Shown here in pieces: positions 3,683 to 5,718 of a stretch of 27,668 bases of DNA. The notes beneath the pieces are model-generated. The model did not search any database. It had not been told where the DNA came from and was given only the letters and a program-made list of their open reading frames with translations. This DNA comes from a virus: the UHGV virus genome UHGV-0347332; one strand, 5' to 3'. A program made the position numbers and the translations under genes. How positions within the stretch are numbered: the first letter of the stretch is position 1; each line of letters starts with the position of its first letter.

Positions 3683-4363
3683 TTATCCCTGTCGCCCGAT
3701 AACCACGACCGTTCCGCCCCCGCCTTCATCACGGGTGCTGATGTCCTGGGATATACGGCGGGAGCCAACCAGCATTTCCCCGTAAGGCACCGGCATCGGG
3801 TTCCCCTGGGCAATCATGTTATCCAGCGAGGAAAAGTACGTGTTCTGTCTGCCGTTATCCGTTGCGCGGTAATCCGGTGTTTTTGCCTTCGGGGCCAGCA
3901 TCTGGGCCACACCGCCCAGAATCATGCTGGCTCCAAGTGAAAACAGCATCGTGGTGGCAGAAAAACCACCGGCTGCCAGGGCTGAACCCCATAACGCCAT
4001 TGATGCCCCGGCAGTGAAGAAAGAGCCCACGATGGCTGCCGCCCCCAGCACAATCTGCAGTCCACCCTTTCCGGCCCCGGCCAGTCGCGGCACAATATGG
4101 ATGACCGTTCCCTCACCCAGCTGTTCGTGAAGACGGGCGTACACCGCCTCCGGTGCCGTGTCATAACCGGCAATACGTATCTGGTACCAGCCTTCGTTCA
4201 TCTGACGGCGAAAGCCCGGCACCTGTAACGACAGCGCCCGGATGGCTTCCGCTGCCGTGTTCACATACAGGCTGAGGCGGCGGCCAAATCGTTGTAAATC
4301 CCCGTGAAGGCAGATGCGTGCCAGTGGCGGTGACGCCAGACAGAATGCGTTCGTCGTTGCCAT
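3683..4363 (-). CDS. I: Tail tip assembly protein I
   Basis: N-terminus MATTNAFCLASPPLARICLHGDLQRFGRR and the rest of the 226-aa ORF are collinear with lambda I. Confidence 0.9.
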   Translation of the reverse strand: MATTNAFCLASPPLARICLHGDLQRFGRRLSLYVNTAAEAIRALSLQVPGFRRQMNEGWYQIRIAGYDTAPEAVYARLHEQLGEGTVIHIVPRLAGAGKGGLQIVLGAAAIVGSFFTAGASMALWGSALAAGGFSATTMLFSLGASMILGGVAQMLAPKAKTPDYRATDNGRQNTYFSSLDNMIAQGNPMPVPYGEMLVGSRRISQDISTRDEGGGGTVVVIGRQG

Positions 4364-4677
4364 TTTTCGGAATACCTCTCCCGTTTACTCAGTTGTTCAG
4401 GCAGATGGTGAAGCAGCTCACCGTTGCCGCAGTAAATGGCGGCATGGTTCGGTACCGAAGCACCAAAGCAGCACAGCAGAATATCGCCCGCCTGTGCAGA
4501 GGACAGGGGCACCCGGTAAAAGCCGGTGACCGCCATATTGTCCAGGTAAAGGTTCTGACCGTTGCGCCACCAGTCATCCTCGCGATGAAAATCCGGCATT
4601 TCAGTCCCCGCCAGATGATAAGCATCCCGGAACAGCGTGTAACAGTCCGTCGGCAATTTTGGCGGTTTCCTTTCCAT
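4261..4677 (-). pseudogene. K: Tail tip assembly protein K remnant: NlpC/P60-like C-terminal part only (TDCYTLFRDAYH…), N-terminal JAB/MPN domain absent
   Basis: ORF matches lambda K only from about TDCYTLF onward; the first 9 residues (MERKPPKLP) are antisense of an L 3' fragment; no Shine-Dalgarno upstream. Confidence 0.6.
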
Positions 4678-5377
4678 TAATAAACTTTCGCAGTAAATCC
4701 CGGTTTATGACACAGACTGAATCAGCGATTCTGGCGCATGCCCGGCGGTGTGCGCCTGCGGAGTCGTGCGGCTTCCGGATATCCGTGGTGGGGTTGTCGA
4801 ACTCATCCGCCACCGCAGGACCGTTATACCCGCATTCATCTCCCCGGTAATCCCACATACAGGTGTTCGCCAGCATGATGCGACCGGGAAACAGCGCCCC
4901 ATCCGTCTCGGTCGGTGTAGCCAGCACAAACGAGGCCGTCATGGCTGTCAGCTGCGACATCTGCTCCACCACCCAGCGGTCACTCAGCTCCTGCTCCGGG
5001 TCCGCCTCCGGATTGCCCGCAACGAAATTCACCGCATCCAGAAAACGGGCATACACCCGGCGGCGGACCACCGTGGCCCCCACCAGACTCTGCAGGTCTT
5101 CCGCCATCCCGGTGACCAGACCGAACAGATTGGACACCGTCAGCGACGGTCTGGCACTGCTGCCCTTCCCGCTCATCTCAAAACCGCTGCCGTCAATCGG
5201 GTATGCCTGATATTGCCGCCCCTGCCAGGTGACCGGCTCCCCTTTTTCATTCAGCTCATTACAGAAAAAATACCGCTCACCGCCCTGTACCGTCAGGTCG
5301 ATTTCCCAGAGTACCACCCGCGGTGACTGCTCTGACTTAACCGACTCGTTCAGACTTTCTTCGCGAATATCCTGCAT
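4601..5377 (-). CDS. L: Minor tail protein L, C-terminus altered (homology ends near 4778; ORF then reads antisense through the inverted K 5' fragment)
   Basis: MQDIREESLNE… and the CMWDYRGDECGY motif match lambda L through …DNPTTDI; the following 59 residues lack the expected Cys-rich tail. Confidence 0.7.
   Translation of the reverse strand: MQDIREESLNESVKSEQSPRVVLWEIDLTVQGGERYFFCNELNEKGEPVTWQGRQYQAYPIDGSGFEMSGKGSSARPSLTVSNLFGLVTGMAEDLQSLVGATVVRRRVYARFLDAVNFVAGNPEADPEQELSDRWVVEQMSQLTAMTASFVLATPTETDGALFPGRIMLANTCMWDYRGDECGYNGPAVADEFDNPTTDIRKPHDSAGAHRRACARIADSVCVINRDLLRKFINGKETAKIADGLLHAVPGCLSSGGD
4649..4777 (+). pseudogene. Inverted segment carrying the L 3' end (…VGNFGGFLSINKLSQ, stop at 4694-4696), a 10-nt spacer and the K 5' end (MTQTESAILAHARRCAPAESCGF, 4707-4775) on the opposite strand
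   Basis: Plus-strand translation gives the lambda L C-terminal motif and the lambda K N-terminus in their native order and spacing, but inverted relative to the flanking minus-strand L and K bodies. Confidence 0.6.
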
Positions 5378-5718
5378 CAGTTCACCACCTGCTCAATCGT
5401 ACAACTGAAATCACTGTGCCTGGCGTTATCTGTGACGCTCCACTCCCGGCACACCACCCTCACCGTCAGGTTATGTTTCGGCGGTCGCCACAAAAAGGCA
5501 CGGTAACCACCATGCCACGATAAAAATTCATCCAGCCAGCGCCGGGTTGGTTCATCCGTCACCCGGAACACCGCCTGAAACGTCTTCAGTCTGGCATTAA
5601 GTCCCGTCGGTCGGCGCTGTTCATAACCGTCACCAAACCGAACCCTCACCACCGACGGTTTCTCACTCACCTGCATCCCTTCACGCGGGACCAGATGCAG
5701 CGTTTTTATCTCAGCCAC
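5377..5718 (-). CDS. M: Minor tail protein M
   Basis: 113 aa with …VRFGDGYEQRRPTGLNARLKT… and …EQVVN end, matching lambda M; correct position between tape measure and L. Confidence 0.8.
   Translation of the reverse strand: MAEIKTLHLVPREGMQVSEKPSVVRVRFGDGYEQRRPTGLNARLKTFQAVFRVTDEPTRRWLDEFLSWHGGYRAFLWRPPKHNLTVRVVCREWSVTDNARHSDFSCTIEQVVN

What the first reader, a model, noticed from the sequence alone, without database searches (positions are those of the whole stretch)
4649..4780. Inverted ~130-bp segment at the L/K junction; K has lost its N-terminal JAB/MPN domain
The minus-strand L ORF matches lambda L only through …DNPTTDI (about 4778). The next ~130 bp carry, on the plus strand, the L C-terminal motif (…VGNFGGFLSINKLSQ, stop), a 10-nt spacer and the first 23 codons of K (MTQTESAILAHARRCAPAESCGF), in native order but inverted. 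The minus-strand K ORF resumes only at TDCYTLF (NlpC/P60 part). About 70 K codons and about 17 L codons appear to be missing. The breakpoint sits in a GATATC palindrome. L and K are tail tip assembly proteins, so this prophage probably cannot build a functional tail.
Basis: partly seen in the sequence, partly recalled or inferred. Interest (0 to 1): 0.6.

Follow-up and report, generated by a model that had tools for sequence, protein, structure and literature searches.

The report
Scrambled L/K tail genes in prophage
In this one copy of an otherwise intact lambda-like E. coli prophage, a 124-base piece spanning the end of tail gene L and the start of tail gene K has been flipped and about 333 neighbouring bases lost, which wrecks both genes; it is a one-off mutation or a sequencing chimera, not a new biological system.

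Summary
Compared with 99.9%-identical intact relatives, window 4652-4775 is an inverted copy of the native L-end/spacer/K-start (L codons 218-232 and stop, a 10-nt spacer, K codons 1-23). Deletions flank it: 284 nt of K (codons 24-118, the whole JAB/MPN catalytic part) and 49 nt of L (codon 201 position 3 to codon 217, including Cys205/208/212). The net loss is 336 bp.

The left junction shares 3 nt (GTC). The right junction is blunt, or CTT plus a terminal mismatch, and lies just outside the native palindrome CGGATATCCG.

No inverted repeats flank the block, and sequence is lost, so this is not a programmed switch or a natural JAB-less K. The arrangement is absent from 5,426 complete E. coli genomes, 50,697 phage records, IMG/VR, GTDB representatives, JGI metagenomes and a 15-billion-protein collection. 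The surrounding 22 kb differs from one E. coli prophage by a single SNP, so the lesion is private and very recent.

The best reading is a deletion-inversion-deletion made by two polymerase strand switches. Whether that happened in vivo or in vitro cannot be decided without reads. A second private inverted block at the window's right end (27145-27549, in Q) raises suspicion of a shared cause. Interest is low.

The parts
3683..4264 (-). Tail tip assembly gene I, intact. Its ATG overlaps the K stop (ATGA), as in the relatives.
   Evidence: Pfam Lambda_tail_I. The annotation of L001/L003 places I at the equivalent position. 100% colinear identity.
4261..4651 (-). 3' remnant of K: residues 119-247 plus stop. 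Only the NlpC/P60 domain remains, and the catalytic-Cys motif TDCYTLF is retained.
   Evidence: Window 4243-4651 equals L001 561-969 at 100%. The remnant tail is identical to intact K from residue 119. Pfam finds NLPC_P60 only.
4649..4651 (.). Left junction: 3-nt microhomology GTC, shared by the K remnant (L001 967-969) and the inverted block (reverse complement of L001 1378-1380).
   Evidence: Overlapping BLAST pieces and base-by-base comparison.
4652..4775 (+). Inverted block of 124 nt (127 with the shared GTC). It now lies on the + strand and holds L codons 218-232 plus stop (4649-4696), the native 10-nt L-K spacer (4697-4706) and K codons 1-23 (4707-4775).
   Evidence: Reverse-strand match to L001 1380-1254, 100% within the block, E=2e-65. 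Translation.
4775..4776 (.). Right junction: blunt join of K codon 23 (inverted) to L codon 201. An alternative reading is 3 nt of homology (CTT, 4772-4774) followed by a terminal mismatch (C at 4775 against A in intact L).
   Evidence: alignment of the window against both candidate sources. The only mismatch in the colinear L piece is at 4775.
4776..4785 (.). Native 10-nt perfect palindrome CGGATATCCG of gene L (codons 198-201), directly abutting the right junction.
   Evidence: Present at L001 1430-1439 in the intact relative (I7). It is therefore not created by the rearrangement.
4776..5377 (-). Colinear part of L: codons 1-201 (native protein sequence through residue 202). It retains Cys173 and Cys182 but lacks Cys205, Cys208 and Cys212.
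   Evidence: Window 4772-5396 equals L001 1426-2050. Residue comparison and Cys positions.
4601..5377 (-). Chimeric ORF of 258 aa: L residues 1-202 fused to 56 aa of nonsense read from the antisense of the inverted block and out-of-frame K.
   Evidence: ORF list. Pfam Phage_tail_L profile 3-185 of 206 only. The exact protein is absent from the 15-billion-protein collection and from the gene-position index.
4261..4677 (-). Chimeric ORF of 138 aa: a fortuitous ATG inside the inverted L tail (MERKPPKLP) fused to K residues 119-247. It overlaps the end of the L-fusion ORF in another frame.
   Evidence: ORF list. Pfam NLPC_P60 only. Not in the protein collection.

Best explanation
This is a private, very recent deletion-inversion-deletion lesion in the tail-tip operon (M-L-K-I-J) of an otherwise intact lambda-like E. 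coli prophage.

Proposed mechanism (inferred):
1. A DNA polymerase copying the operon left its template next to the palindrome CGGATATCCG in L.
2. It resumed on the complementary strand 176 nt further on.
3. It copied 124-127 nt back towards its point of departure, stopping 49 nt short of it.
4. It switched back to the original strand 284 nt beyond the copied block, through a 3-nt GTC match.

Result (shown): a flipped L-end/spacer/K-start block and a net loss of 336 bp.

Consequences (inferred from domain content):
- L becomes a 258-aa fusion lacking residues 203-232, including two of its four [4Fe-4S] cysteine ligands.
- K is reduced to an NlpC/P60-only fragment, without its own ribosome-binding site or JAB/MPN metalloprotease domain.
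- Translation of I, whose start overlaps the K stop, is probably lowered.

The prophage should therefore make heads but no functional tail tips, unless another prophage supplies L and K.
For: - Three-piece alignment to intact relatives with exact breakpoints.
- All three segments derive from within 460 bp of one locus, and the block is 100% identical to the relative.
- Domain losses shown by Pfam and residue comparison.
- gpL cluster ligands are Cys173/182/205/212, and gpL residues 154-232 form the iron-binding domain (PMC10721106).
- K is a JAB plus NlpC/P60 protein predicted to process I (PMC1779556).
- Private: 0 of 5,426 complete E. coli genomes and none of 265 matching phage records. Neither junction is in IMG/VR, GTDB representatives or JGI metagenomes, with a positive control. 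The chimeric proteins and the antisense tail are not in the protein collections.
- Recent: window 318-22693 differs from the TUM9975 prophage only by this lesion and one SNP.
- No flanking inverted repeats.
- The geometry (jump ahead onto the other strand, copy back to within tens of nt of the departure point, jump again) recurs in the second private inverted block at 27145-27549: a 494-nt jump, 405 nt copied back, a 89-nt gap.
- Long-distance template switching and MMBIR-type complex events are documented for E. coli (PMC1428787, PMC2621351).
Against: - Microhomology is weak: 3 nt at one junction, and 0 nt (or 3 nt plus a terminal mismatch) at the other. The second event has 1 nt and 0 nt. 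This distribution does not differ from random blunt joining.
- No reads are available, so the junctions may not exist in the organism's DNA.
- Two such rare events within 27.7 kb are unlikely as independent in vivo mutations.
- Loss of tail function is inferred, not measured.
- Other L/K copies are common in E. coli (median 3 matching places per genome, up to 28), and prophages can complement each other (PMC2669165).
Confidence: 0.5

Rival explanations
1. In vitro or assembly chimera. The junctions were made outside the cell, for example by phi29 strand displacement during whole-genome amplification, or came from a chimeric long read in a thinly covered contig. The organism would then carry intact L and K.
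For: - MDA chimeras are typically 'inverted sequences with intervening deletions' between nearby segments (85% of 475 junctions; PMC1855051). That is the form seen here.
- The window holds two such inverted blocks, both absent from every collection searched.
- The second block lies only 119 nt from the window's end and joins sequence that is 100% identical to a different lambdoid prophage found in the same kind of strains.
- Apart from these lesions, the sequence is essentially identical to known prophages.
Against: - Among MDA chimeras joining segments less than 10 kb apart, 93.5% show at least 2 bp of complementarity. Three of the four junctions here have 0-1 nt.
- Each event needs two successive switches that restore the original orientation.
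- At ordinary coverage an assembler follows the majority, non-chimeric reads.
- No repeat of k-mer length exists at any junction, so a de Bruijn graph mis-join is excluded.
Confidence: 0.33
2. Breakage and rejoining in vivo. Double-strand breaks on either side of the L/K boundary were resected, by about 49 and 284 nt. The 124-bp middle fragment was then re-ligated in the opposite orientation, by alternative end joining or by gyrase/topoisomerase-mediated illegitimate recombination.
For: - Blunt or near-blunt junctions (0-3 nt) fit homology-independent joining better than primed switching.
- Sequence is lost on both sides of the flipped piece.
Against: - E. coli has no Ku/LigD end-joining pathway (own knowledge).
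- A free 124-bp fragment would have to survive RecBCD.
- The second event involves a duplication of Q sequence from a different allele, not a simple flip. Breakage and rejoining at one locus does not explain that.
Confidence: 0.13
3. A natural variant or a programmed invertible element. Either this is a K homologue that normally lacks JAB, or it is a phase-variable switch that turns tail-tip genes off.
For: - NlpC/P60-only versions of K exist in some prophages (PMC1779556).
- A palindrome abuts one junction.
Against: - The first 23 K codons and the last 15 L codons lie inverted next door, and 333 nt are missing, so the change is irreversible.
- No inverted repeats flank the block.
- No recombinase gene lies in the late operon of the annotated twin prophage.
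- No other genome or phage shows the arrangement in either form.
- The palindrome is native L sequence.
Confidence: 0.02

Closest known systems
Lambda tail-tip module L-K-I-J (gpL Fe-S hub protein; gpK JAB + NlpC/P60 assembly protein)
   Same: Same gene order and the same Pfam families (Phage_tail_L, Prok-JAB + NLPC_P60, Lambda_tail_I). The 10-nt L-K spacer and the K/I overlap match the relatives. The L cysteines sit at the lambda positions 173, 182, 205, 208 and 212 in the intact relative.
   Different: In the window, L ends at residue 202 followed by nonsense, and K lacks residues 1-118. The boundary piece is on the wrong strand.
Deletion-inversion-deletion and other complex rearrangements attributed to fork stalling/template switching or MMBIR (PMC2621351; E. 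coli template switching, PMC1428787)
   Same: A short inverted segment copied from nearby sequence, small deletions on both sides, no long repeats, and junctions with little homology.
   Different: Microhomology is at the low end (3 and 0 nt). The scale is very small (124 nt inverted). Nothing shows that replication stress was involved.
MDA (phi29) chimeras: inverted sequence with intervening deletion (PMC1855051)
   Same: Inverted joins between segments a few hundred nt apart on one molecule, with several per long molecule.
   Different: They usually show at least 2 bp of priming complementarity at such distances. They are individual-molecule artefacts and should not reach a consensus.
NlpC/P60-only TAPK versions in integrated prophages (Iyer, Burroughs & Aravind 2006, PMC1779556)
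   Same: The end product is a K protein with only the papain-like peptidase domain next to I. Those authors already suspected such versions of being degenerate.
   Different: Here the route of degeneration is visible and recent: the missing N-terminus partly survives, inverted, 30 nt upstream.
Site-specific invertible segments of phage tail-fibre genes (Gin/Cin/Pin/Hin systems)
   Same: A short DNA block in a phage tail gene region found in flipped orientation.
   Different: No flanking inverted recombination sites, no invertase gene nearby, sequence is lost, and the genes affected are assembly genes rather than fibre tips.

Membership tests
Lambda-like tail-tip assembly module (L, K, I) | L homologue with a Phage_tail_L domain including the C-terminal Cys ligands of the [4Fe-4S] cluster | tested here: not met
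   The domain is present but truncated (profile 3-185 of 206). Cys205 and Cys212 are missing (ligands per PMC10721106). The gene is a member by descent but is a broken copy.
Lambda-like tail-tip assembly module (L, K, I) | K homologue with JAB/MPN plus NlpC/P60 domains | tested here: not met
   Only NLPC_P60 is found in the window ORF. The intact relative has Prok-JAB 3-105 plus NLPC_P60 111-224.
Lambda-like tail-tip assembly module (L, K, I) | Gene order M-L-K-I-J on one strand, with I overlapping the K stop | tested here: met
   Colinear with annotated relatives except for the inverted block.
Programmed site-specific invertible segment | Inverted repeats (recombination sites) at both borders of the invertible block | tested here: not met
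   The repeat finder on 4400-5000 reports no inverted repeat pair bracketing 4652-4775. The junctions share 3 and 0 nt.
Programmed site-specific invertible segment | Conservative reaction: no sequence lost, and both orientations found among relatives | tested here: not met
   333 nt plus one copy of GTC are missing. The flipped orientation is seen in no other genome or phage.
Programmed site-specific invertible segment | Invertase/recombinase gene adjacent | tested here: not met
   The annotation of the near-identical prophage in TUM9975 lists only structural, lysis and regulatory genes across the region equivalent to the window.
Replicative template-switch rearrangement (FoSTeS/MMBIR type) | Inserted inverted segment templated from nearby sequence of the same locus | tested here: met
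   The block equals L001 1254-1380, natively 49 nt and 284 nt from the two flanks.
Replicative template-switch rearrangement (FoSTeS/MMBIR type) | Microhomology (typically 2 nt or more) at each junction | tested here: inconclusive
   GTC (3 nt) at the left junction. The right junction has 0 nt, or CTT plus a terminal mismatch. This is compatible with chance.
Replicative template-switch rearrangement (FoSTeS/MMBIR type) | Arises in vivo during replication or repair | not testable with these tools
   Needs raw reads, PCR on unamplified DNA, or the strain.
MDA / library chimera | Junctions supported only by a minority of reads or by amplified DNA | not testable with these tools
   No read data and no provenance for the window.

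The most novel reading that the evidence does not exclude
Both private inverted blocks, at L/K and at Q (the latter joining two different lambdoid prophage alleles), would be genuine in vivo scars of one episode of aberrant prophage replication, for example co-induction or abortive escape replication. In that episode the leading strand repeatedly switched to the lagging-strand template and between co-resident prophages. This would be natural evidence that copy-choice template switching both inactivates prophages and creates lambdoid mosaics without homologous or site-specific recombination.
Probability: 0.12. Interest if true: 0.5.

Novelty: new member of a known kind. Interest (0 to 1): 0.17.

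Why it matters
If real, it is a clean and freshly made example of how a prophage is disabled: a single complex event removes two essential tail-tip functions while everything else stays intact. It would also be one of few bacterial examples of a small deletion-inversion-deletion of the kind usually discussed for human structural variants. For annotation, the two ORFs here should be flagged as pseudogene fragments of L and K. They should not be called a 'C40 family peptidase' and a long 'minor tail protein L'. If it is an artefact, the value is as a warning that this contig contains chimeric joins. In neither case does it reveal a new system.

Tried and rejected
- **Natural JAB-less K.** Rejected because relatives at 99.9% identity have a 247-aa K, and the missing N-terminus lies inverted beside the remnant.
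- **Programmed invertible switch.** Rejected: no flanking inverted repeats, sequence is lost and no invertase gene is nearby.
- **Cleavage at the EcoRV site GATATC.** The junction is 5 nt from the GAT|ATC cut position, and the other three breakpoints share no motif.
- **De Bruijn graph mis-join through an inverted repeat.** The longest inverted repeats in the intact locus are 8-16 nt and imperfect, and none spans a junction pair.
- **Homeology-guided switch at the right junction.** 8 of 14 bases match between the K codon 20-27 antisense and L codons 198-202. Either polarity requires extension from a mismatched 3' end, so this is suggestive at best.
- **Search for the same lesion elsewhere.** I searched by junction strings in three public collections, by the exact chimeric proteins, and by the 56-aa antisense tail. 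The only hits were antisense ORF calls on intact loci.
- **The 1.49-kb difference from TUM9975 at 22807-22820 as a third private lesion.** It is a common mosaic variant, present in 839 genomes.
- **Tam et al. 2013 (PMC4061613) on gpL cysteine mutants.** The paper is not held.

Full report
**What is in the sequence**

The minus strand of window 3683-5718 carries the lambda-type tail-tip genes M, L, K and I (ORFs; Pfam Phage_tail_L, NLPC_P60 and Lambda_tail_I). I fetched an intact relative, phage vB_EcoS-705R7 (L001, 99.9% identical). Its annotation gives L 232 aa, a 10-nt spacer, K 247 aa, and I overlapping the K stop. BLASTN of window 4241-5400 against it gives three pieces:
- window 4243-4651 equals L001 561-969, 100%, colinear;
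- window 4649-4781 equals L001 1380-1248 on the opposite strand, 133 nt, E=2e-65;
- window 4772-5396 equals L001 1426-2050, colinear.

Base-by-base comparison places the left junction in a shared GTC (4649-4651) and the right junction between 4775 and 4776.

The inverted block is therefore 4652-4775. On the + strand it reads:
- L codons 218-232 and the stop (4649-4696);
- the native 10-nt spacer (4697-4706);
- K codons 1-23 (4707-4775).

Two stretches of the relative are missing. One is L001 970-1253 (284 nt, K codons 24-118). The other is L001 1381-1429 (49 nt, L codon 201 position 3 to codon 217). The net loss is 336 bp.

**Consequences for the proteins**

*L.* L is native through residue 202 and then runs into 56 residues of antisense or out-of-frame sequence (258-aa ORF 4601-5377). 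It keeps Cys173 and Cys182 but loses Cys205, Cys208 and Cys212. In the lambda virion structure the [4Fe-4S] cluster of gpL is held by Cys173, 182, 205 and 212, and residues 154-232 form the iron-binding domain that completes the hub with gpJ (PMC10721106).

*K.* K is reduced to residues 119-247 behind a fortuitous ATG (138-aa ORF 4261-4677). Pfam finds only NLPC_P60, whereas intact K has Prok-JAB 3-105 and NLPC_P60 111-224. The JAMM motif (HSHPGG...SEAD) is in the deleted part. K's own start and ribosome-binding region now point the wrong way. The remnant's ATG lies inside the L-fusion reading frame, so expression is doubtful, and so is the coupled start of I (inference).

*Expected phenotype.* gpK is not a virion component. 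It is predicted to process the ubiquitin-like gpI (PMC1779556). From classical lambda genetics (own knowledge: Katsura and Kuhl's tail pathway), L and K are both required for the tail initiator. The prophage should therefore be tail-defective unless complemented. Complementation is conceivable: E. coli genomes hold a median of three L/K-like places, and defective prophages can help one another (PMC2669165).

**Is it a natural form or a switch?**

It is neither.
- None of 5,426 complete E. coli genomes has a place covering 80% or more of window 4500-4950. An identical arrangement would cover 100%.
- The best of 265 matching phage records cover 89% of the query, in two pieces that skip the inverted block.
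- Neither junction string occurs in IMG/VR, in one genome per GTDB species, or in JGI metagenomes. A native K string used as a positive control does occur.
- The two chimeric proteins are not among 15 billion proteins or 153 billion gene positions.
- A search with the 56-aa novel tail returned only antisense ORF calls on intact loci, none with a junction.
- No inverted repeats flank the block, sequence has been lost, and the annotated twin prophage has no recombinase gene in this region.
- Iyer et al. noted NlpC/P60-only K versions in prophages and suspected degeneration. Here the degeneration is caught in the act.

**Age and context**

The window is a lambdoid prophage late region, running from J through Q. 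Positions 318-22693 are identical to the prophage of E. coli TUM9975 except for this lesion and one SNP at 21517. All large structural ORFs are full length: tape measure 1080 aa, portal 753 aa, capsid 645 aa and terminase 553 aa. The lesion is therefore very recent and sits in an otherwise intact morphogenesis operon.

**A second event**

The right end of the window holds another private inverted block. Window 27145-27549 is 100% identical, in reversed orientation relative to its surroundings, to the Q 3' end, the intergenic region and the first 49 nt of tRNA-Ile of a different lambdoid prophage (L005, strain 4/0). It is followed by 119 nt (27550-27668) of that prophage's Q in the colinear orientation. 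These two pieces lie 89 nt apart natively. The junctions share 1 and 0 nt. No complete E. coli genome or IMG/VR contig has either join.

The geometry matches the L/K event. Read along the minus strand, the sequence leaves its template, restarts further ahead on the other strand, runs back towards its departure point and stops short of it, then jumps again.

| Event | Jump ahead | Copied back | Gap left short of departure |
|---|---|---|---|
| L/K | 176 nt | 124 nt | 49 nt |
| Q | 494 nt | 405 nt | 89 nt |

**Mechanism**

The anatomy is what two successive strand switches of a polymerase produce. These would go from the leading to the lagging-strand template ahead of a stalled, uncoupled fork, and then back. 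Such long-distance switching and MMBIR-type complex events are documented, including in E. coli (PMC1428787, PMC2621351).

The same form arises in vitro with phi29 polymerase. In that study, 85% of MDA chimeras were inverted joins with an intervening deletion between nearby segments (PMC1855051).

Several points weigh against a clean template-switch reading. Microhomology across the four junctions is 3, 0 (or 3 plus a terminal mismatch), 1 and 0 nt, which is no more than chance. The same study reports that 93.5% of chimeras joining nearby segments show at least 2 bp of complementarity.

Several points weigh against an artefact. A consensus assembly should follow the majority reads. In addition, no repeat of k-mer length exists at any junction, so a graph mis-join is excluded.

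Breakage and rejoining with a flipped 124-bp fragment fits the blunt junctions. It is hard to reconcile with E. coli lacking classical end joining (own knowledge). It also does not explain the duplicated, allele-mixed structure of the Q event.

Two such rare events in 27.7 kb point to a shared cause. That cause could be a burst of aberrant replication or a chimera-prone preparation. I cannot choose between them without reads. I put about 0.5 on in vivo template switching, 0.33 on an artefact and 0.13 on breakage and rejoining.

**Verdict**

The feature is a one-off structural lesion, or a chimera, in two well-known genes. It is not a new element. The kind of lesion is known and this instance is new. 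Interest is low.

Noticed in passing
window 27145-27668: A second private inverted block. Window 27145-27549 equals the Q 3' end, intergenic region and first 49 nt of tRNA-Ile of a different lambdoid prophage (L005 3501-3905, 100%), flipped relative to the window's own truncated Q (26458-27141, minus strand). It is followed by 27550-27668, which equals L005 3411-3293 (100%). Junction microhomology is 1 nt and 0 nt. The arrangement is absent from 5,426 E. coli genomes and from IMG/VR. The antiterminator gene Q is disrupted too.
   Followed up: partly
window 22807-22820: Relative to the TUM9975 prophage, 1.49 kb (most of a SASA-family carbohydrate esterase gene) is absent, with a 14-nt overlap at the join. 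This is not private: 839 complete genomes are colinear with the window here and annotate a DUF1737 remnant. It is a common mosaic variant.
   Followed up: yes
window 318-22693: This stretch is identical to the prophage of E. coli TUM9975 (NZ_CP135664) apart from the L/K lesion and one SNP at 21517. By contrast, 17-317 (the J C-terminal region) carries 11 differences, and 22694-27149 is only about 99% identical to any complete genome. This is typical lambdoid mosaicism.
   Followed up: partly
L004 (lambda J02459) 1134-1876, i.e. record 14133-14875: In the deposited lambda sequence, the stretch from the MTQTES ATG to the K stop is 743 nt, against 744 nt in the intact homologue. The single-base gap falls near nt 134. 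The N-terminal 45 codons are therefore out of frame, and K is annotated as 199 aa from an internal Met.
   Followed up: partly
window 24531-24607 and 24708-24783: Two phage-borne tRNA genes on the minus strand: tRNA-Arg(TCT) and a CAT-anticodon tRNA. ARAGORN calls the second tRNA-Met, whereas RefSeq calls it tRNA-Ile in relatives. A partial second copy of the latter lies in the inverted block at 27501-27549.
   Followed up: no
window 3683-4363: The longest I-frame ORF (226 aa) starts 99 nt upstream of the annotated I start (4264) and runs inside the K remnant. Relatives annotate I as 193 aa starting at the ATGA overlap with K.
   Followed up: no
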